Positions 4,847-57,298 of a stretch of 64,000 nt of DNA are shown here, one piece after another. The stretch covers positions 1,465,360-1,529,359 of the forward strand of contig OZ252226.1 of NCBI GenBank assembly GCA_965249285.1, in the 5' to 3' direction. Position 1 is the stretch's first letter. The number at the start of each line of letters is the position of its first letter. The notes beneath the pieces were generated by a model that was not told the origin of the DNA, searched no databases, and was given only the letters and a program-made list of their open reading frames with translations. A program made the position numbers and the translations under genes. The stretch is from Candidatus Foliamicus sp. (lineage in GTDB: Bacteria; Pseudomonadota; Gammaproteobacteria; Steroidobacterales; Foliamicaceae).

Positions 4847-6946
4847 TTAAGCCTTTCCGAAGCCGCGGCCGGCGGCGGCCAGATCCACCAGCCGCTGCGC
4901 GGGAGCCCAGCGGGCGCCGAATCGCTCATGGAACGCGTGGATGTCCGCGAGCACCGGGGCCAGCCCCTGGTGATCCGCGTAGTGCATGGGACCGCCCCGC
5001 CAGGCCGGAAACCCATAGCCGTAGACGTACACGATGTCGATGTCGGATGCGGCCCTTGCCACCCCTTCCTCAAGCAGCTTGGCGCCGACGTTCACCAGCG
5101 GGTACATGCACCGCTTGACGATCTCTGTCGGCTCGGCGGCCGGGCCGGACCGATAGCCCATCTCTTCGGCCAGGCCCTCAATCAACCGGACCACCCCGGG
5201 ATCAGATTCGGGAACCCGGCTTCCGGGCCGATAGTTGTAAATGCCGTGGCGGTTCTTCTGCCCAAACCTTTCTCGCTCGCACAGCGCATCGCCCAGGCGC
5301 TCGCCCGGCTTGCGCTCGCCGACCGGCTTGCCGGCAAGTTTCCGGGCCCGCCAGCCGAGGTCCAGGCCCACCAGATCGGCCATCTGAAACGGCCCCATGG
5401 GCAAGCCGAATTCGCGCAGCACAGCATCGACTTGCTCCGCCGGCGTGCCTTCAAACAGCAGCTCGAAGGCTTCGAACATGTAATCGGTCAACATGCGGTT
5501 GCCGATAAAGCCGTGGCTGTTGGCAGACCAAACGGGGATCTTCTTCATCCGGGAAGCAAGCGCAAACGCGCAGGCGATAGTTTCCGGAGCGCTTTGCCGG
5601 CCCTGGATCACTTCCACCAGCCGCATGATGTTGGCCGGACTGAAGAAATGCATGCCCAGGACCTGCTCCGGCCTGCCGGTTGCATCCGCCATTCGGTCGA
5701 TGTCCAGATAGGAAGTATTGCTGGCGATAACCGTCTCTGCAGGCAGAATTTCGTCCAGGCGGGCGAAAATCTGCTTCTTGAGGTCGAGATTCTCGTAGAT
5801 CGCCTCAACGGCGAAGTCCGCTTCGGCCAGGGCAGCGTATTCCGTGGTGGGCGTAATCAGCCCCATGCAGCGTTGCGCGCCGCCGGGCGCCAGCCGGCCG
5901 CTTTTTTCCGACCGCTCGAAATTCTTGTGTACCACGCCCAGGCCCCGCTCCAGGGCCTCCTGGCTGGTCTCCAACACGGTCACCGGAATACCGGCGATGG
6001 CGAAGTTCATGGCGATGCCCCCGCCCATCGTTCCGCAACCCACCACCGCGGCGCGCTCAACCGGACGGGCCGAAGCGCCCCCGGCGCCCCTGAATACCGC
6101 GCGTTCGGCGAAGAACAGGTGCGAGAGCGCCGCGCTCTGCGGGTTCTTCAGGCAGCGTATGAAGCGGCGGCGCTCCTCGCCAAGCCCGGCCCTGAAATCG
6201 TCGCGGCAGGCCACCGCCTGCTCAATGCACTGCACGATCAGTTCCGGCGAGTCCCGGCCCCGCATCTTTCGGGCGATCAGGCCGCGGGCGGCCGCAAACG
6301 CCTCCGCCCCTTCGCCGGCTTCGGAAAGTTTCCCCGGACCCGAGGATATCTTGCGCAGCGGGCCATCCTGATCCAGCAACTCGCCGGCGTACACGCAGGC
6401 GGCCTCGGTCACGCTGCCTTCCAGCAACTGGTCGGCCAGGCCGATCTTCAAGGCCTGTTGCGTATCCACCGGCCTGCCGTCCAGGCACATGCGCAAAGCG
6501 TGCTCCACCCCGATCAGGCGCGGCGTTCGTTGCGTGCCTCCGGCGCCCGGCAGCAGGCCGATATTCACCTCGGGAAAGGCGAACCGGGCGCGGGAAGACA
6601 CCGCTCGATAGTCGCAGGCCAGGGCCAACTCCAGGCCGCCGCCGTAGGCCACCCCGCCGATCACCGCTACCACGGGCTTGGGACATGCGTCCAAGGCGTC
6701 GCACAGCGCCGTCAGAGACGCCTCCGGCGCCGGGAGCTCCTTCAGGCCGAACTCCTTGATGTCGGCGCCGGCGCACCAGGTCTTCAGGCCGCTAAGCAAT
6801 AACACCGCGCCTGCCGAGTCGTCCTGCGAAGCCGACTCGATTGCCGCCAGCAGCGGGGCGCGCAGCTTTGCCCCCAGGGCGTTGACCGGCGGAGAACCCA
6901 TTTCAATCAGCCGGATCCGGCCGCGATCACTCACCTTGACCGTCAT
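4847..6946 (-). CDS. bifunctional enoyl-CoA hydratase / 3-hydroxyacyl-CoA dehydrogenase (FadB/FadJ-like)
   Basis: 699 aa. The N-terminal half is crotonase-like (VNALG...CAGADIKEF). The central part has a Rossmann motif ([12 protein letters not shown]) and a 3-hydroxyacyl-CoA dehydrogenase C-terminal region. Confidence 0.85.
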
Positions 6947-6957
6947 GCGCCGCCTCC

Positions 6958-7045
6958 GTCCATTCGGCGAGGGCAGGATGCCCTCGTTCCCAAGCGTGTT
7001 TCCTGCGCATCAGCGCAGCGACGCCTGCTGCGAAAACTCCCAGCC
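6958..7045. repeat. REP unit plus conserved tail module, flanked by a 27-bp direct duplication (6931-6957 and 7046-7072)
   Basis: gcgagggcaggatgccctcgttccc is followed by ttcctgcgcatcagcgcagcgacgcctgctgcgaaaactcccagc. The flanking repeats are identical at 23 of 27 positions. Confidence 0.85.
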
Positions 7046-7057
7046 TCACCTTGAGTG

Positions 7058-8041
7058 TCATGCGCCGCTGCCTACTATTCTGAATACCCACTTGCCGGTT
7101 ACCTGACGATGGGCAAAGGCCTCATACGCTTGCATGTATTCCTCAAGCGGGAGCTCCCGGCCGATAGGGCAGCCGATGGCGCCGCCGGCCGCCAGCTCCG
7201 ACAGGGCACCAAGGTTTTCGCGCGCAACATCGGGATGCCGATCGGTCCACGGACCCCACAAAACGCCCAACACCGCGGCGGTCTTCAACAAGACCAGGTT
7301 CAGCGGCAGGCGCGGGATGGACCCGGCGGCGAATCCCACCACCAGGAAACGGCCGCCCGGCGCACAAGCGCGATAGGCTGATTCCGAATAGTCCCCGCCC
7401 ACCGGATCGACCACGACATCGACCCGGCCCCCGGCCAGCTTCTTCAGCCGGCCACGAAAATCGTCCTGGGTATAGTCGATGCATTCTTCAGCGCCCAGGG
7501 ACATTGCCAATTGGAGCTTGTCCTCGCTCCCGGCCGCGGCGATCACGTGGGCGCCCATGGCCTTCGCCAACGCTACGGCCGCCATTCCCACCCCTCCGCC
7601 GGCGCCCAGCACCAGCACGGTTTCGCCGGCTTGAAGGTCCGCAACCTGCTTGTAAGCGTGGTAGCAGGTACCGTACGTGATGCAAAAGCCGGCGCCCTGA
7701 GCAAAACTCATATTTCCCGGCAGGCGGGCCACATGATGGCGGGGAGCAACCGCCAGCTCGGCAAACATAGCCCGGCCGTGCATCGCAACCCGATCGCCTA
7801 CCGCCAGGTCCTCGACGCCTTCGCCGAGCGCCGCCACTACGCCGGCGGCCTCGCCCCCGGGAGTGAACGGAACTTCGGGACGGCGCTGATAGCGGCCCTG
7901 AACCATCAGCAGATCGAAGAAATTGAGGCCCGCGGCGCCCACCGCCACCAGCACCTCGCCCGGCGCCGGGGCCGGTTCCGGCGCCTCGCCCACAACAAGC
8001 TCCGGGCGCTCGGCGTAGCGGGTGCAAATCAGAGCGCGCAT
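7058..8041 (-). CDS. NADPH:quinone oxidoreductase / medium-chain (zinc-type) dehydrogenase family protein
   Basis: 327 aa with an MDR fold pattern (GEVLVAVGAAGLNFFD..., VLGAGGGVGMAAVALAKAMGA). Confidence 0.8.
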   Translation of the reverse strand: MRALICTRYAERPELVVGEAPEPAPAPGEVLVAVGAAGLNFFDLLMVQGRYQRRPEVPFTPGGEAAGVVAALGEGVEDLAVGDRVAMHGRAMFAELAVAPRHHVARLPGNMSFAQGAGFCITYGTCYHAYKQVADLQAGETVLVLGAGGGVGMAAVALAKAMGAHVIAAAGSEDKLQLAMSLGAEECIDYTQDDFRGRLKKLAGGRVDVVVDPVGGDYSESAYRACAPGGRFLVVGFAAGSIPRLPLNLVLLKTAAVLGVLWGPWTDRHPDVARENLGALSELAAGGAIGCPIGRELPLEEYMQAYEAFAHRQVTGKWVFRIVGSGA

Positions 8042-24561: not shown

Positions 24562-26493
24562 ATGAGAAGAATGCTAGTAAACGCCACCCAGCAAGAAGAG
24601 GTGCGCGTTGCTTTGGTCGATGGGCAACAACTTTATGACCTTGCCATTGAACATCGAGAAAAAGAACAAAAGAAAGGCAACATCTACAAGGGGCGCATTG
24701 CGCGAGTAGAACCCAGTCTTGAGGCTGCGTTTGTTGATTTCGGCGCAGAGCGCCACGGTTTTCTCCCCTTAGAGGACATATCCCGCGAGTACTTTCTGGG
24801 GACGCCGGAACCCGGCAAACCCCTGAACATTGCCGAGCTGGTGAAGGAAGGCCAGCAGCTGGTGGTGCAGGTCGAGAAAGACGAGAGGGACAACAAGGGC
24901 GCCGCGCTGAGCACCCTGGTCTCCCTGGCCGGCCGTTACCTGGTACTGAATGCCAACAACCCACGCGGTGGGGGCGTATCCCGCCAGGTCCGAGGCGAGG
25001 ACCGCCAGGCGGTGCAGCAGCGCCTGGGCAACCTCAATATTCCCAAGGGCATGAGCGTAATCATCCGCACCCAGGGTCACGACCGGGGTGGCGAGGAACT
25101 GCAATGGGACCTGGACAACCAGCTGCGGATATGGGAGGCCATCAAGCTCGCAGTGCTGGAGCGCGACGGCCCTTTCCTGGTGGTGCAGGAATCCAACGTG
25201 ATTCTGCGTGCGGTGCGGGACTATCTCTCCGACTCAATCGGGGAAATCGTAGTGGACGACGACGAAGCCTACGAGAGCATCCGCAGTTTCATGAAGCACA
25301 CCATGCCGCACTTTCTGGACCGCCTGCGGCGGCATGAGGACGACGGGCCGCTGTTCAACCGCTACCAGATCGAAAGCCAGATCGACACCGCGTATCGGCG
25401 CCGCGTCAACCTGCCCTCCGGCGGCCAGATCATCATTGACCAGCCGGAGGCCGGCATTTGCATCGACGTCAATTCCGCGCGCGCCACGTCGGCGGAGGAC
25501 ATCGAGCAGACTGCGCTGCAAACCAACCTGGAGGCCGCCGACGAAATCGCCCGTCAGTGCCGGATCCGCGATTTATCGGGGCTGCTGATGATCGACTTTA
25601 TCGATATGCGCTCCGCCGGATCCAACCGGCAGGTGGAGGATCGGCTGCGCCAGGGCACCCGCAACGAACCGGCGCGGATACAGATCGGACAGATTTCGCG
25701 CTTCGGCATCCTGGAAATGTCGCGCCAACGCTTGCGCACGTCGCTGGTCGATACGACTCACGAGACCTGTCCGCGATGCGGCGGTACCGGGCGAATTCGC
25801 GGTGTGGAGTCACTAGGCCTGCACGTGCTGCGGATGATCAGCGAAGAAGCGGGCAAGGAACGCACCTCGAAGGTGGTGGCGGAACTGCCACTGGTTGTGG
25901 CGAACTTTCTTCTGAACGAGAAGCGATCCGCCCTGACGCAAATCGAGGACGTATACATGGTCAGCGTGGTTCTGGTTGCCAATTCCGCCATGGAGACACC
26001 CGAGTTCGCTTTGCGGCGGGTGCGCGACAATACCGATGACGAAACCCCCAGTTACGAATTGGCAACCGTGACGGCCCCGCCCCCTGCCAATCTTGCACCC
26101 AGCCGCGGCAAACCGCCGGAAAAGCCGGCGGTAGAGCGCTCCCTGCCTGATACCGCGCCGCCCGAGCACAAGGCCAAGGCCGCCAAGAAGCCAGACCGCA
26201 AGAAGAAGAAAAAGCCGAAGGTTGGATTTTTTGCTCGTCTGTTCGGGCGGAACAAGAAAAAGAAAACTCCGGCCAGGCAACCTGCCAGGAAGGCTCAGCC
26301 GCAACAACGCTCTCGGCCGCAACGCAAGGCAAAGCAGCCGCCGAAACACCAGGGCGGACCCAGGAACAAGGCGCAGGGCGAATCGCAGGCGCCCCGCCGC
26401 AAGGAATCCGAATCCGGCAACGGTCATCCTCCGCGCAGGCGCAGGCGCAGGCGCCGCAGGCGCCCCGGGAGCGACGCCCCGCCGTCGTCCTGA
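24562..26493 (+). CDS. rne: ribonuclease E (short form, 643 aa)
   Basis: It starts MRRMLVNATQQEEVRVALVDGQQLYDL and has an S1 domain, a DNase I-like domain and the CPRCGGTG zinc link. The basic tail ends in RRRRRRRRRR. I chose the ATG at 24562 rather than 24478. Confidence 0.92.
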   Translation: MRRMLVNATQQEEVRVALVDGQQLYDLAIEHREKEQKKGNIYKGRIARVEPSLEAAFVDFGAERHGFLPLEDISREYFLGTPEPGKPLNIAELVKEGQQLVVQVEKDERDNKGAALSTLVSLAGRYLVLNANNPRGGGVSRQVRGEDRQAVQQRLGNLNIPKGMSVIIRTQGHDRGGEELQWDLDNQLRIWEAIKLAVLERDGPFLVVQESNVILRAVRDYLSDSIGEIVVDDDEAYESIRSFMKHTMPHFLDRLRRHEDDGPLFNRYQIESQIDTAYRRRVNLPSGGQIIIDQPEAGICIDVNSARATSAEDIEQTALQTNLEAADEIARQCRIRDLSGLLMIDFIDMRSAGSNRQVEDRLRQGTRNEPARIQIGQISRFGILEMSRQRLRTSLVDTTHETCPRCGGTGRIRGVESLGLHVLRMISEEAGKERTSKVVAELPLVVANFLLNEKRSALTQIEDVYMVSVVLVANSAMETPEFALRRVRDNTDDETPSYELATVTAPPPANLAPSRGKPPEKPAVERSLPDTAPPEHKAKAAKKPDRKKKKKPKVGFFARLFGRNKKKKTPARQPARKAQPQQRSRPQRKAKQPPKHQGGPRNKAQGESQAPRRKESESGNGHPPRRRRRRRRRRPGSDAPPSS

Positions 26494-26539
26494 GGGACAT
26501 CAGCCGCTTAAATGTGTTCGGCGGTGAGCCAGCCGTCGG

Positions 26540-26683
26540 GCTTATAGGTGGCGAAGGCAGGATGCCCTCGCTCCTATGGAACAACCTGGGAACGAGGGCT
26601 TCCAGCCCTCGACGACGGCAGGATGCCCTCGCTCCATTGTTCCCTGCGCGTCAGCTTAGCGGCGCCTGCTGCGAAAACTCCCA
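26540..26683. repeat. 144-nt composite element (three REP units plus tail module), flanked by a 34-bp direct duplication (26506-26539 and 26684-26717)
   Basis: By my hand alignment it is roughly 85% identical over about 135 nt to 57158-57293. The flanking repeats are identical at 32 of 34 positions. Confidence 0.85.
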
Positions 26684-26685
26684 GC

Positions 26686-27345
26686 TTAGATGAGTTCGGC
26701 GGTGAGCCAGCCGTCGGACTGCCAATGCGACACTTGCATCTCCACGCCCATGCTCTCGGCATAGGCGAGCAGGCGGGGACGGGTCCAGTTCTCGTGTATC
26801 CACTCCTCGCTAAAGTCGAACTGCCCCAGCTTGCGGCAGGCGGCCAGTACCCGGCCAAAGGGTGAACGCCAGCGCCGCATGCCGGGGCTGGATTCGTTGT
26901 CCAGACAGAGTTGATAGTGACAGGCAGTGCGATCGAAAATCCCGATCAAGGCAATTTCGCGCTGACCGGTCTTTTCAATAAGGCCTCTCATGCGCTCGTT
27001 CAGGGGCTCCATGGTCTTGATGTCGTGAGCCACGAACTCGTCCATCATCCCGTGGTCCTTGGCGAACTGCATGGCCTGAAGGTGCGCCTTGATCAGCGCA
27101 TCGTTAATCTCGTGGGCATAGGGCTGGGTGTTCCTGAGCGTCTTCAGCACTACCGCCATGGACTTACCGAGTTCCTCTTCGCGGCCCTCAAGCCCGCTTT
27201 GGGCGCCGGCGAACGCGCCGGGCGGCGGACCTTCCGATACGCCGGGCGGCGGGCCGCCTGCTACTCCGGGCGGAGGACCGCCCGCGGACTGCGGCCGGGG
27301 GCCGGCAATCGGCCCGGTCTCTTTGCGTAATGGTTGAACGCTCAT
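26686..27345 (-). CDS. hypothetical protein with an N-terminal Pro/Gly-rich repeat region
   Basis: 219-aa ORF. The N-terminus has GGPPPGV-type repeats and I do not recognise the globular C-terminal part. Its last 10 codons are duplicated 178 bp downstream. Confidence 0.5.
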   Translation of the reverse strand: MSVQPLRKETGPIAGPRPQSAGGPPPGVAGGPPPGVSEGPPPGAFAGAQSGLEGREEELGKSMAVVLKTLRNTQPYAHEINDALIKAHLQAMQFAKDHGMMDEFVAHDIKTMEPLNERMRGLIEKTGQREIALIGIFDRTACHYQLCLDNESSPGMRRWRSPFGRVLAACRKLGQFDFSEEWIHENWTRPRLLAYAESMGVEMQVSHWQSDGWLTAELI

Positions 27346-39996: not shown

Positions 39997-40000
39997 CCCC

Positions 40001-40054
40001 CCTGGGAAAGAGGGCATCCTGCCCTCGACGCAGGCAAGACGTCCCCTCCCCAGG
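40001..40054. repeat. REP pair immediately after the mfd stop
   Basis: cctgggaaagagggcatcctgccctcgac + gcaggcaagacgtcccctccccagg (the second unit is degenerate). Confidence 0.7.
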
Positions 40055-40296
40055 TTTCCCACACTCGTCCTACCCTCACGAAGCGCTCAAGCAAGAGCTA
40101 CAGCTCCCAAGGCCATTTGCCCAAGAGTCAGAAACTACCGCCAATATCGTGAGAAATTCGTATTGACACTTCTCCGGGTTCGGTTGTATTCCCGCTAGCG
40201 TTCCCGGCCTTTGGCAGTACGCGTCCCCCAACGTTCCGGCGGGAAGCAGACCCCAAGGGCCATTTTTGTTGAACTGATGACATGGAGGTCAGGACT

Positions 40297-40869
40297 ATGT
40301 CCACTGCTATCCTGGTTGACACGGCCTTCTTTCTGAAGCGATTCCGCCATGTCTACCCGGATCTGAATGCCAAAAATCCAACGATTTTCGCCGCCACGCT
40401 CTGCAAGATGTGCATGGCTCATGTTGGCGATGCCGACTTGTATCGGATCCTGGTTTACGACTGCCCGCCCCTAAATAAGCGAACGCATCATCCAATTACG
40501 CAGGAACTCGTAGACTTCCTAAAGCTCCCGGGCGCCCTATTCCGGTTGGAGTTTCACAAGCAGCTAAAGCAAAAGCGCAAAGTGGCGCTCCGTCTGGGTT
40601 ACCTCAGAGCGCAAAATTGGATAATCACGCCTGAAGCGGGGAAGAAACCTCTCGCCGGCAAGATAACGCCAGATCAGCTACAGCGGACCAACGCGAGATT
40701 CGACATCACCCAAAAAGGCGTCGACACAAAAATCGGGATTGATATTACTTCGCTCGCCTTGAAGCGCATGGTTAAGCAAATCGTGTTGGTGTCGGGCGAC
40801 GGCGACTTCGTGCCGACTGCAAAGTTGGCCAGACGCGAGGGGATCGATGTCGTATTGGATCCAATGTGA
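40297..40869 (+). CDS. NYN-domain (LabA/PIN-like) putative ribonuclease; the in-frame TGA may truncate it
   Basis: AILVDTAFFLKR...YRILVYDCPP...QKGVDTKIGIDI...LVSGDGDFVPTAKLARREGIDV is the NYN acidic-residue pattern. A GGAGG sits 8 nt before the ATG at 40297. G+C is much lower than in the neighbours. The frame stays open for 27 codons after the TGA, to 40953. Confidence 0.72.
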   Translation: MSTAILVDTAFFLKRFRHVYPDLNAKNPTIFAATLCKMCMAHVGDADLYRILVYDCPPLNKRTHHPITQELVDFLKLPGALFRLEFHKQLKQKRKVALRLGYLRAQNWIITPEAGKKPLAGKITPDQLQRTNARFDITQKGVDTKIGIDITSLALKRMVKQIVLVSGDGDFVPTAKLARREGIDVVLDPM

Positions 40870-40988
40870 TCTCACATCGGGGACGCGCTCCACGAGCACA
40901 TTGACGGCCTGCGTTCAACATCCCCTAAACCGCACAATTACAGAGCTGTCTGACCTTCGATCGCAATGGCGGACAGGCTACTGTTTGG

Positions 40989-41046
40989 CCATAGGAGTTT
41001 TCGCAGCGGGCGCCGTTGCGCTGACGCGCAGGGCACCAACGCTGGG
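40989..41046. repeat. inverted, degenerate copy of the REP tail module inside the low-GC islet
   Basis: ggagttttcgcagcgggcgccgttgcgctgacgcgcaggg is the reverse complement of the 57252-57293 tail (gtcagcgcaacggcgcccgctgcgaaaac is identical). Confidence 0.65.
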
Positions 41047-41199
41047 GACGATTGGGAAAAGCAGACACCTGCAACATGACGCTGCCAGGTCGTTCGCACA
41101 ACGCATAGCCTACCCTGGGGAGAGCTACGGATTCCTTCCTCAGCCGCTTCCGCCAGCGACGAGCGAGTACTTGCAGTGTGCAAGCCGTAAACTAGGCGC

Positions 41200-41859
41200 A
41201 TGTCTTCGCGCGTCACGTTTCGCTGTCTCAAGCCAGCCGTGCGAAGCGTCTTAGCCACTCTGCTGGGGCTTACGAGTCTCGCGCTTGCTCCCGCAACGGG
41301 TTTGGCGCAGGAAAACGACTTCCGGGTTGCTCTGGAGATGGTGGTGTTCGCCCAACTGGAACCGGAGGCCAGCACGGAGGACATTCTGGTGACTCCGCCT
41401 GACCTGCCTCCCGCGCGGACTTATCCCGCGCCTATTCGGCTGCCGGATGCAGGACCTGTGACGCCACAGACGCCACCCGGCGTAGTTGCGCTTACCCGCG
41501 CCCAATACGCGCTGGACGGGATTTGGGGGGCAATGCGCCGCAGCGCCGAGTACCGCCCGCTGGCCCATTTCGCCTGGGCCATGCCCGCGGAATGGAACGG
41601 CGCGGCAATCCCCTTGCGTCTATCGACCTTGTCCGCTGCTCCACTGGCTTTCAGTGGACAGGTTTCGCTGGAGGAGGATCGGTTCGTGCAACTCACGCTG
41701 GATGTGCGCCTGCCTGCCGAGCCTGACGCGGCAGGAACGTATCGCCTGACCGAGCGACGGCGCCTGCTTCTGGGAGAGATCCACTACTTCGACCATCCCC
41801 GCTTCGGTGCAATCGTGAGGCTATTCCGCTATCGCTCCCGGCCGCAAGCGGAAGAATGA
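41200..41859 (+). CDS. CsiV-like (DUF2803) periplasmic protein
   Basis: It has a signal peptide (LALAPATGLAQE), then ...VALEMVVFAQ..., and a C-terminal HYFDHPRFGAIVRL motif that I associate with the CsiV family. It occupies the position next to mfd as in Vibrio and Pseudomonas. Confidence 0.55.
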   Translation: MSSRVTFRCLKPAVRSVLATLLGLTSLALAPATGLAQENDFRVALEMVVFAQLEPEASTEDILVTPPDLPPARTYPAPIRLPDAGPVTPQTPPGVVALTRAQYALDGIWGAMRRSAEYRPLAHFAWAMPAEWNGAAIPLRLSTLSAAPLAFSGQVSLEEDRFVQLTLDVRLPAEPDAAGTYRLTERRRLLLGEIHYFDHPRFGAIVRLFRYRSRPQAEE

Positions 41860-41882
41860 ACACAAGCTGATCCGGAGCGAGG

Positions 41883-41938
41883 CAAAGGAGCGAGGGCATC
41901 CTGCCCTCGACGAGGGCGAGACGCCCTCGTTCCCAGCG
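41883..41938. repeat. REP pair flanked by a 20-bp direct duplication (41863-41882 and 41939-41958)
   Basis: ggagcgagggcatcctgccctcgac + gacgagggcgagacgccctcgttccc. The flanks are caagctgatccggagcgagg and caagctaatccggagcgagg. Confidence 0.85.
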
Positions 41939-41942
41939 CAAG

Positions 41943-42746
41943 CTAATCCGGAGCGAGGGCGAGACGCCCTGCTCCAGCGCTCCCATCGGGGGGATCGGAA
42001 TCCGAAATCCAGCGATTGATCAGTTGGCGGGCACGCTCAAGCGCCGAGTCCAGCCAAGTCCGGTGCTGGGCGTGAATGCCGGCGGTTTCGCCCGCTGCTT
42101 CCCGGCCTGCGGCGCAGTTCGTCACCAGCGAGAGTGAAACATAAGGGATACTGAGTTCACGCGCGAGCACGGCCTCCGGCATCAAAGTCATTCCGACCAG
42201 GGTGCAACCGTCGCGCTCCAGCCGGTCGATTTCCGCAGCGGTCTCCAGGCGCGGACCCTGCATAACTCCGTATACCCCCTGGGCAAGACAGCCCGTATTC
42301 ACCGCAGCCGCTGCCAGACCCTCCCGCATTTCGGGATCGAAGGGAACGGCGAATGCAATGAACGCGCTTTTTCCTGCGCCCTCCTCCGTGAAACTGGTTG
42401 CGCGCGAGTGCGTGTAGTCGATCAGGTCATGAGGTATGGCGACCGTCCCCGGAACGGCATCGGGCGCAATGCCGCCCACGGAATGCACGCCGAGGACGCA
42501 TTGCGCCCCCGCATCGGCCAGCGCATGCAGGTTTGCCCGGTAGTTGATTCGATGTGGCGCGATAGCGTAGTCCTCGCCATGCCGGTTCAGGAACAGGACC
42601 TCGATCCGATTGAGCCGGCGAATCTCCACGGGTGCGGAAGGCCGGCCATAGGGCTGACCTCCTTCCGGCGCCAGCCCTTCCTTCCTACCCAGACCCAAAC
42701 GCTCCGGCGGGACCCCGGAAATCAGCGCAAGCCCGTCAATCCGCAT
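41943..42746 (-). CDS. S-methyl-5'-thioadenosine/thioinosine phosphorylase family (PNP type)
   Basis: 267 aa with ...FLNRHGEDYAIAPHRINYRANLHALADAGAQCVLGVHSVGGI.... It lies next to nagZ as in P. aeruginosa. The last roughly 8 codons lie in a REP-like unit. Confidence 0.8.
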   Translation of the reverse strand: MRIDGLALISGVPPERLGLGRKEGLAPEGGQPYGRPSAPVEIRRLNRIEVLFLNRHGEDYAIAPHRINYRANLHALADAGAQCVLGVHSVGGIAPDAVPGTVAIPHDLIDYTHSRATSFTEEGAGKSAFIAFAVPFDPEMREGLAAAAVNTGCLAQGVYGVMQGPRLETAAEIDRLERDGCTLVGMTLMPEAVLARELSIPYVSLSLVTNCAAGREAAGETAGIHAQHRTWLDSALERARQLINRWISDSDPPDGSAGAGRLALAPD

Positions 42747-57135: not shown

Positions 57136-57293
57136 CCCTGGAGGGAGGGCATCCTGCCCTCCGAGGACGGGGCGTCCTCGCTTGCATGGAACAACCTGGG
57201 AACCAGGGCTTCCAGCCCTCGCCGAGGGCAAGATGCCCTCGCTCCATTGCTTCCTGGCGTCAGCGCAACGGCGCCCGCTGCGAAAACCCTCAG
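57136..57293. repeat. composite REP element (four units plus tail module) between truB and rpsO
   Basis: ggagggagggcatcctgccctcc, gacggggcgtcctcgc, gggaaccagggcttccagccctcg and gagggcaagatgccctcgctcc are followed by the tail ...gtcagcgcaacggcgcccgctgcgaaaaccctcag. It is homologous to 26540-26683. Confidence 0.85.
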
Positions 57294-57298
57294 GAGGC

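What the first reader, a model, noticed from the sequence alone, without database searches (positions are those of the whole stretch)
6931..7072. REP element inserted into an overlapping stop/start (ATGA) operon junction, with a 27-bp duplication that keeps both genes intact
The string tcaccttgaccgtcatgcgccgcctcc (6931-6957) and tcaccttgagtgtcatgcgccgctgcc (7046-7072) are 23 of 27 identical and 115 bp apart. They flank an 88-nt REP-plus-tail unit. Each copy contains GCGCATGAC, that is the last codons of the quinone-oxidoreductase-like gene, its TGA, and an overlapping ATG followed by ACx xTC AAG GTG. The right copy supplies the real oxidoreductase stop (..GSGA*) and a vestigial start (MTLKVR). 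The left copy supplies the real FadB-like start (MTVKVS) and a vestigial ..GGGA* tail. The simplest reading is that the ancestral genes were translationally coupled through ATGA. The insertion then duplicated the junction, so neither ORF was damaged. This is a second, sequence-unrelated case of a long duplication at a REP insert.
Basis: seen in the sequence. Interest (0 to 1): 0.6.

Follow-up and report, generated by a model that had tools for sequence, protein, structure and literature searches.

The report
REP unit splitting two overlapping genes
A small non-coding repeat element landed exactly where two overlapping operon genes share the four bases ATGA and copied 36 bases of that junction to both of its sides, so both genes stayed whole; a target copy this long is not what REP-type repeats are expected to make.

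Summary
On the coding (minus) strand a 36-bp stretch, not 27 bp, occurs twice: 7080-7045 and 6965-6930, 29/36 identical. The two copies flank a 79-nt insert at 6966-7044.

The insert is one REP hairpin plus a 48-nt non-palindromic head that I call module B. Both parts recur elsewhere in the window; the 36-mer does not.

Copy 1 holds the real stop of an MDR/quinone-oxidoreductase-like gene. Copy 2 holds the Shine-Dalgarno site and the real ATG of a FadB-like gene.

Three related lineages have the same two genes joined directly by ATGA with no insert: two outgroups and one ingroup lineage. Seven other alleles carry the insert at identical boundaries, with 1, 3 or 5 REPs.

A second, unrelated site (26508-26720) shows the same B+REP unit flanked by a 35-bp duplication. 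Relatives have the empty site there too, and there the duplication was not needed to save any gene.

So the long duplication looks like a property of the insertion process rather than of selection. The enzyme or mechanism is unknown, and I have only two events. I rate it a new variant of a known kind, of moderate interest.

The parts
7045..7080 (-). Copy 1 of the 36-bp target duplication (coding strand GAATAGTAGGCAGCGGCGCATGACACTCAAGGTGAG). It holds the last codons and the real TGA (7060-7058) of the oxidoreductase-like gene, plus a vestigial ATG (7061-7059) and vestigial first codons MTLKV.
   Evidence: aligns to the single copy at empty sites
6930..6965 (-). Copy 2 of the 36-bp target duplication (GAATGGACGGAGGCGGCGCATGACGGTCAAGGTGAG). 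It holds a vestigial oxidoreductase tail and TGA (6945-6943), the Shine-Dalgarno GGAGG (6957-6953) and the real FadB-like ATG (6946-6944).
6966..7044 (-). Inserted 79-nt element, made of module B plus a linker plus one REP hairpin plus CC. It is absent from the empty-site alleles.
6997..7044 (-). Module B, a 48-nt non-palindromic head of the element (GCTGGGAGTTTTCGCAGCAGGCGTCGCTGCGCTGATGCGCAGGAAACA on the coding strand). It abuts copy 1.
   Evidence: other copies at 26638-26685, 40988-41035 and about 57250-57296
6968..6991 (.). REP hairpin CGAGGGCAGGATGCCCTCG (7-bp G+C stem) with its conserved TTCCC flank.
   Evidence: about 17 extragenic copies in the window
7058..8041 (-). Upstream gene: 327-aa MDR-family (quinone-oxidoreductase-like) dehydrogenase (ADH_N + ADH_zinc_N).
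4847..6946 (-). Downstream gene: 699-aa FadB-like enoyl-CoA hydratase / 3-hydroxyacyl-CoA dehydrogenase.
6927..7061 (-). 44-codon 'bridge' ORF. It starts at the vestigial ATG that overlaps the oxidoreductase stop, stays open through the element, and stops 17 nt past the FadB ATG. Its function is not shown.
26686..26720 (-). Second event, functional copy of a 35-bp target duplication: the real 3' end and TAA of a 219-aa gene.
26543..26685 (-). Second event, the inserted 143-nt B + three-REP unit.
26508..26542 (-). Second event, vestigial copy of the 35-bp duplication (32/35 identical). It lies 14 nt from the stop of the convergent RNase E/G gene (TGA 26491-26493).
   Evidence: empty site in L213-L215
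57140..57296 (-). Third B+REP unit, between truB and rpsO, with B next to the truB stop. No duplication is recognisable.

Best explanation
A non-autonomous, BIME-like composite repeat inserted into the 4-bp overlap (ATGA) between the oxidoreductase-like gene and the FadB-like gene of a fatty-acid-type operon. The repeat is a 48-nt head (module B) followed by REP hairpins in alternating orientation.

The insertion copied 36 bp of the target to both sides of the element. I infer that the two target strands were opened about 35-36 bp apart (roughly 3.5 helical turns) and that the single-stranded flanks were filled in.

The 36 bp span the last seven oxidoreductase codons, its stop, the FadB Shine-Dalgarno site, the ATG and five codons. 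So the upstream copy keeps the oxidoreductase intact and the downstream copy keeps a self-sufficient FadB start. The only thing lost is the direct stop/start coupling.

Afterwards the REP number at the site changed (1, 3, 5). The two copies exchanged bases by conversion, the block was shuffled between strains, and one lineage is empty, probably through recombination between the 36-bp repeats.

Shown: the insertion, its boundaries, the duplication, the empty sites and a second event with a 35-bp duplication. Inferred: the staggered-cut mechanism, the agent, and any effect on expression.
For: Empty sites have a single copy and a direct ATGA: L001, L083, L204/L205.

Seven filled alleles share identical boundaries, copy1|SCTGGGAG... 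and ...CCCTCG(C/T)C|GAAT: window, L081, L208, L209, L210/211, L206/207, L082.

The 36-mer is unique in the window, while the insert modules are repeated.

The second event uses the same unit in the same orientation, with B against the intact gene end, and has a 35-bp duplication. Its empty site is seen in L213-215 and its filled state is shared with L220.

In that second event the genes were already 14 nt apart, so no gene needed the duplication. The spare copy also decays in L220. The duplication is therefore mechanistic, not selected.

GGAGG lies 6 nt before the FadB ATG inside copy 2.

The window's ORFs are otherwise housekeeping genes, with no mobility gene among them.
Against: There are only two events with measurable duplications. 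Two further B copies (truB-rpsO and 40988-41035) and six REP-only clusters show no flank duplication.

No enzyme is identified. No REP/RAYT or MITE mechanism I know of gives such a duplication.

The history is not tree-like. The empty lineage L204 sits inside the clade, and the [copy 1 + B] block is mosaic between lineages. A single insertion followed by loss is therefore likely but not proven.
Confidence: 0.6

Rival explanations
1. Replication or repair accident rather than transposition. A polymerase template switch, or capture of a repeat copy as filler at a broken or staggered site, copied a B+REP unit from elsewhere and resumed 35-36 nt upstream of where it left, producing the flanking duplication as a by-product.
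For: No transposase, terminal inverted repeats or RAYT were seen. Extra, untemplated-looking bases (ACCTATA) sit at the REP-side junction of the second event. REP hairpins are plausible stalling sites. 'Insertion with long target duplication' is known for other DNA without any transposase (PMC2853133).
Against: Two independent events gave nearly the same length (36 and 35 bp), the same element orientation and the same element end (SCTGGGAG) at the junction. An accident should give scattered lengths and break points. No microhomology is evident at the junctions.
Confidence: 0.25
2. Selection filter only. The element inserts by an ordinary process with variable or no duplication, and at an overlapping junction only the rare events that duplicate the junction survive. 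The long repeat would then reflect survivorship, not mechanism.
For: At the ATGA junction any insertion without a duplication covering the stop, Shine-Dalgarno site and start would damage one of the two genes.
Against: The second event carries a 35-bp duplication although the convergent genes were already separated by 14 nt. The spare copy there is non-functional and decays in L220.
Confidence: 0.08
3. Two steps. A 36-bp tandem duplication first un-overlapped the genes, and later a REP unit settled in the new intergenic spot.
For: REP-type elements prefer intergenic DNA. Tandem duplications of junctions do occur.
Against: The element sits exactly at the boundary between the two copies in all seven filled alleles, and again at the second locus. 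No allele has the duplication without the element.
Confidence: 0.05
4. The two 27/36-mers are chance similarity, or are part of the repeat element itself.
For: None beyond the G+C-rich composition.
Against: Shuffles expect 0.00 matches. The flank alignment is far above the null. The stretch is absent from all other element copies. It is present once at empty sites.
Confidence: 0.01

Closest known systems
REP / BIME elements and REPINs (mobilised by RAYT Y1 transposases)
   Same: Short G+C-rich palindromes in many extragenic copies. They cluster in alternating orientation and are joined by conserved non-palindromic motifs. Copy number varies at a locus, and a whole unit can be present or absent between strains.
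   Different: IS200/IS605-type Y1 transposition does not make sizeable target duplications (PMC2817692). Here two insertions carry 35-36-bp duplications. No RAYT was seen, but the window is only about 2% of the genome.
Insertion with long target duplication (ILTD; Nobusato/Kobayashi, Furuta et al. 2010, PMC2853133)
   Same: The insert is flanked by a direct repeat of more than 30 bp that is single-copy in the empty-site genome. There is no mobility gene, and the repeats often overlap a gene's 3' end.
   Different: ILTD was described for kilobase restriction-modification gene cassettes with variable repeat lengths (46 to over 400 bp). Here the insert is a multicopy non-coding repeat of 79-290 nt, and the two lengths are nearly equal.
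MIRU (mycobacterial interspersed repetitive units)
   Same: Small repeats sit inside operon junctions and carry short ORFs whose ends overlap the stop and start of the flanking genes (PMC3184786). Here three alleles have a bridge ORF running from ATGA to ATGA.
   Different: MIRUs are 40-100-bp tandem units with 4-nt direct repeats. They are not REP hairpins and have no long duplication. In this window's allele the bridge ORF ends 17 nt past the start.
Insertion sequences that make long duplications: the IS1202 subgroup (27-28 bp) and IS1634/IS1549 (8-514 bp)
   Same: They show that bacterial transposases can open a target with a long stagger, either fixed (27-28 bp; bioRxiv 10.1101/2022.12.17.520857) or variable (PMC2266710).
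   Different: Those are autonomous ISs with a transposase gene and terminal inverted repeats. This element has neither, and 35-36 bp is longer than the fixed lengths reported there.
CRISPR spacer integration by Cas1-Cas2 (analogy from general knowledge, not tested)
   Same: Two nucleophilic attacks one repeat-length apart (about 28-37 bp) followed by fill-in duplicate a stretch of about 36 bp around the inserted DNA.
   Different: There is no CRISPR array, leader or cas gene here. The inserted DNA is a structured repeat unit, not a spacer.

Membership tests
REP / BIME (REPIN-like) repeats | Short G+C-rich imperfect palindrome present in many copies, confined to extragenic DNA | tested here: met
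   About 17 copies with 3 or fewer mismatches, all between ORFs. The two hits inside genes have 4 mismatches.
REP / BIME (REPIN-like) repeats | Clusters of palindromes in alternating orientation, separated by conserved linker motifs | tested here: met
   B-REP(-)-REP(+)-linker-REP(-) architecture at 26543-26685, at 57140-57296 and in L208/L206/L082. There are 1/3/5-REP variants at one site.
REP / BIME (REPIN-like) repeats | A cognate RAYT (Y1 transposase) gene flanked by the same REPs in the genome | not testable with these tools
   No Y1_Tnp or other transposase among the window ORFs scanned. The window is about 2% of a 3.2-Mb genome.
REP / BIME (REPIN-like) repeats | Insertion without sizeable target duplication (IS200/IS605-type single-strand mechanism) | tested here: not met
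   36-bp and 35-bp duplications at two insertions with documented empty sites.
MITE | Terminal inverted repeats matching an IS, and a short fixed target duplication (2-10 bp) | tested here: not met
   The element ends are GCTGGGAGTTTT... and ...GCCCTCGCC, which are not inverted repeats of each other. The duplication is 35-36 bp.
Insertion with long target duplication (ILTD) | Direct repeat of more than 30 bp flanking the insert that aligns to a single copy in a genome lacking the insert, with no mobility gene in the insert | tested here: met
   Criteria are as given in PMC2853133.
Insertion with long target duplication (ILTD) | Insert is a gene cassette (restriction-modification genes in the original definition) | tested here: not met
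   The insert is 79-143 nt of non-coding repeat in this window, and 75 to about 250 nt at the same site in relatives.
MIRU-like operon-junction repeats | Small ORF in the repeat whose start overlaps the upstream stop and whose stop overlaps the downstream start | tested here: inconclusive
   This holds for L209, L206 and L082. In the window, L081 and L208 the ORF stops 17 nt past the start, and in L210 it fuses in frame. The REP modules lack stop codons in nearly all frames, so an open frame is weak evidence.
Long-duplication insertion sequences (IS1202, IS1634) | Transposase gene and terminal inverted repeats, or a derivative that keeps the IS ends | tested here: not met
   No ORF lies inside the element, there are no inverted termini, and there is no transposase in the window.

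The most novel reading that the evidence does not exclude
This gammaproteobacterial lineage has a dedicated integration system that inserts B+REP units right at gene 3' ends. It would use a ruler-like stagger of 35-36 bp, longer than any fixed target duplication I found in the IS papers read here, and comparable to Cas1-Cas2 repeat duplication. The same two cut points at the oxidoreductase/FadB junction may even have been used more than once, which would explain the mosaic, highly divergent insert alleles in otherwise 98-99% identical strains.
Probability: 0.2. Interest if true: 0.8.

Novelty: new variant of a known kind. Interest (0 to 1): 0.55.

Why it matters
REP and BIME repeats are among the commonest non-coding repeats in bacteria, yet how new copies arise is still only partly understood. 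The favoured RAYT model predicts no target duplication.

Here there are two clean filled/empty pairs with 35-36-bp duplications. This suggests that at least one REP family spreads by a different route, or with a different partner enzyme.

It also shows how a mobile repeat can enter a translationally coupled, overlapping gene pair without killing either gene, turning a 4-bp overlap into a 111-nt structured spacer between stop and start. The spacer can then grow, shrink, be read through (a 737-aa FadB is predicted in one allele) or be lost precisely.

The long repeats themselves give a built-in route to exact excision. That would make such insertions reversible regulatory variants within a population.

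Tried and rejected
- **Metagenome scan.** None of the 120 loci held a full B or a REP. The census of more insertions therefore failed.
- **Genome scan.** The genome-contig scan did not return the source genome, only relatives at 80% identity or less.
- **Known families and signals.** Rfam gave nothing at gathering threshold or at E<=10 around the site. The promoter/terminator scan found nothing in 6700-7300. The whole 151-nt RNA fold is not unusually stable (z = -1.35).
- **Plasmids.** The plasmid collection has no similar DNA.
- **Other clusters.** Eight other REP/B clusters in the window have no significant flank duplication.
- **truB-rpsO unit.** All four related loci found were filled and of the same length, so no empty site was obtained.
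- **L212.** Its gene end AEHI* looked like an empty site, but the contig simply breaks at the start of B.
- **Bridge ORF.** I considered it as evidence for selected coupling and rejected it as weak, because the REP modules are stop-free in almost every frame.
- **Shared target motif.** GACGG sits at the same offset in both targets. This is marginal, about 3-6% by chance, and I did not rely on it.
Full report
**What is in the sequence**

Both genes lie on the minus strand. A 327-aa MDR-family (quinone-oxidoreductase-like) gene occupies 8041..7058. A 699-aa FadB-like gene (enoyl-CoA hydratase plus 3-hydroxyacyl-CoA dehydrogenase domains) occupies 6946..4847. They sit in a run of MaoC-dehydratase, short-chain dehydrogenase, oxidoreductase, FadB, then mutS.

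A pattern of their shared bases matches only these two places in the window, even with two mismatches allowed. Shuffles expect none.

The repeat extends further than reported. It covers 36 nt, 6930-6965 and 7045-7080, 29/36 identical. The material between the copies is 79 nt (6966-7044).

On the coding strand the order is:
- copy 1, GAATAGTAGGCAGCGGCGCATGACACTCAAGGTGAG;
- the element;
- copy 2, GAATGGACGGAGGCGGCGCATGACGGTCAAGGTGAG.

Copy 1 carries the real oxidoreductase stop and a spare ATG. Copy 2 carries a spare stop, a GGAGG Shine-Dalgarno site six bases before the ATG, and the real FadB start.

**What the insert is**

The insert has two parts that recur in the window.
- A 19-nt G+C-rich palindrome, CGAGGGCAGGATGCCCTCG, with a TTCCC flank. 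About 17 good copies exist, all between ORFs and often as inverted pairs.
- A 48-nt non-palindromic head that I call module B. Three further copies lie at 26638-26685, about 57250-57296 and 40988-41035.

The fuller form of the unit is B, REP, REP, a conserved linker, then REP, about 135-145 nt in all. This form is seen at 26543-26685, between truB and rpsO, and at this same junction in relatives.

This is a BIME-like organisation. Rfam has no family for it. There is no promoter-like or terminator-like site, and nothing similar exists in the plasmid collection. All four B modules point the same way relative to the gene upstream of them: gene stop, then B, then REPs.

**Empty and filled sites**

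The source genome was not in the species-representative collection. The nearest relatives are uncultured Gammaproteobacteria. Protein search, cluster listing and contig look-ups recovered the orthologous locus from eleven further assemblies.

| State | Loci | Relation to the window | Spacing added at the junction |
|---|---|---|---|
| Empty, direct ATGA, single copy of the 36-mer | L001, L083 | outgroups, 78-84% DNA identity | none |
| Empty, direct ATGA, single copy of the 36-mer | L204/L205 | ingroup, 93-94% | none |
| Filled, one REP | window, L081 | — | 115 nt |
| Filled, one REP | L210/L211 | ingroup | 111 nt |
| Filled, three REPs | L208, L206/L207, L082 | ingroup | 172-173 nt |
| Filled, five REPs plus a second spacer | L209 | ingroup | 287 nt |

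All seven filled alleles have exactly the same boundaries: copy 1 followed by (G/C)CTGGGAG, and ...CCCTCG(C/T)C followed by GAAT.

Loci without the element have one copy of the junction, not two.

**A second event shows the duplication is mechanistic**

At 26508-26720 the same B plus three-REP unit is flanked by a 35-bp repeat, 32/35 identical. The copy next to B is the real 3' end and stop of a 219-aa gene. The other copy is a spare, lying 14 nt from the stop of the convergent RNase E/G gene.

In three assemblies of a sister lineage (L213-L215) the site is empty: stop, 14 nt, stop. In L220 the site is filled at the same boundaries and the spare copy has decayed.

Here no gene needed the duplication. 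The long repeat is therefore a product of how the unit gets in, not only of which insertions survive. The two lengths, 36 and 35 bp, are nearly the same, and in both events the B end lies against the intact gene end.

**History at the junction**

A rooted neighbour-joining tree of the flanks places the empty lineage L204 inside the clade. It groups with the L209/L210/L206/L082 group upstream of the junction (98.5% bootstrap) and with the window group downstream (70%).

The block [copy 1 + B] is mosaic.
- L208 has flanks 98-99% identical to the window. Yet its copy 1 (34/36) and its B (48/48) match L209, whose flanks are only 89-92% identical to L208's.
- The window differs from L208 at 6/36 positions in copy 1 and 7/48 in B.

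The window and L081 differ by two substitutions two bases apart. These make copy 2 match copy 1, which looks like a short conversion tract.

I read this as one old insertion followed by four kinds of change: gain and loss of REPs, conversion between the copies, exchange between strains, and a precise loss (or import of an empty allele) in L204. Re-insertion at the same two cut points cannot be excluded.

**How it most likely works**

Shown: a repeat unit entered an ATGA overlap and 36 bp of target now flank it.

Inferred: the target strands were opened about 35-36 bp apart and the gaps were filled. I put the probability that a dedicated cut-and-fill process did this at roughly 0.45-0.6. A replication or repair accident is the main rival, at about 0.25.

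The consequence for the genes follows from the anatomy. The duplicated stretch spans the stop, the ribosome-binding site and the start, so each gene keeps a complete end. Direct stop/start coupling is replaced by a 111-nt structured spacer between the oxidoreductase stop and the FadB start.

An ORF starting at the spare ATG stays open through the element in all seven alleles.
- In L209, L206 and L082 it ends on the second ATGA.
- In the window, L081 and L208 it ends 17 nt past the FadB start.
- In L210/L211 it fuses in frame, which gives a predicted 737-aa FadB.

This could preserve coupling, as proposed for MIRUs (PMC3184786). However, the REP modules lack stop codons in almost every frame, so I do not count it as evidence. 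Whether the hairpin stabilises or ends the upstream transcript is untested.

**Comparison with known systems**

- **REP/BIME.** The element meets the sequence definition of a REP/BIME repeat. It fails the expectation that such repeats insert without a sizeable duplication (PMC2817692).
- **MITE.** It is not a MITE: it has no inverted termini and no short duplication.
- **ILTD.** It meets the operational criteria of 'insertion with long target duplication'. That class was defined for restriction-modification cassettes with variable repeat lengths (PMC2853133).
- **Long-duplication ISs.** Insertion sequences with long duplications exist: the IS1202 subgroup at 27-28 bp and IS1634/IS1549 at 8-514 bp. 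Those carry transposases and inverted repeats.
- **Mobility genes.** None of the window ORFs scanned against Pfam matched a mobility-gene family. Those with a Pfam match are housekeeping genes (recA, mutS, aspS, clpB, mfd, ligA, smc, pnp, infB, nusA and others); six ORFs matched no family.

**Verdict**

The thing itself is a new variant of a known kind: a REP/BIME-type unit whose insertions carry a target duplication of about 36 bp.

The weak points are the small number of events (two) and the unknown agent. A census across the available complete genomes of this clade would settle whether the 35-36-bp stagger is a rule.

Noticed in passing
L210:3001-5214 and L211:2463-4676 (protein P0125): In this allele the insert plus duplication is 111 nt and in frame. 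Gene callers therefore predict a 737-aa FadB whose first 37 residues are encoded by the spare start, module B and a REP hairpin.
   Followed up: partly
L209:2763-3111: The same junction is expanded to five REPs with a second B-like spacer (287 nt added). So the site grows and shrinks in steps of a REP pair plus linker.
   Followed up: partly
window 6947-6951 versus L081:4093-4095: Two substitutions two bases apart (GGCGGAGTATGA in L081/L208/L209, GGCGGCGCATGA in the window) make copy 2 identical to copy 1 over that stretch. This looks like a short gene-conversion tract between the duplicated copies.
   Followed up: partly
window 26508-26720; L213-L215:2585-2700; L220:2086-2400: A second insertion of the same unit has a 35-bp target duplication between a 219-aa gene and the convergent RNase E/G gene. 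The empty site is seen in a sister lineage, and the spare copy has decayed in L220.
   Followed up: yes
window 40000-42400: This is a gene-poor, REP-rich stretch. It holds a NYN-domain ORF (40282-40869, lower third-position G+C), an orphan module B without intact REPs (40988-41035), and a run of REPs at 41880-41990.
   Followed up: no
window 57140-57296: A B + REP unit lies between truB and rpsO, with B next to the truB stop. It is present at the same length in four related assemblies, and no flank duplication is recognisable.
   Followed up: partly
window 6956-6960 and 26533-26537 (coding-strand positions 6-10 of each target): Both duplicated targets have GACGG at the same distance from the REP-side boundary. 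It may be a target preference, but it would arise by chance about 3-6% of the time.
   Followed up: no
L002:5095-6001: A more distant relative (FadB 76% identical) lacks the oxidoreductase gene altogether. The short-chain dehydrogenase gene is followed by 138 nt and a GTG-started FadB.
   Followed up: no
L205:5105-7676: mutS is called as two ORFs (533 and 302 aa) in this assembly, but as one 856-aa gene in its near-identical partner L204. This is either a frameshift or an assembly error.
   Followed up: no
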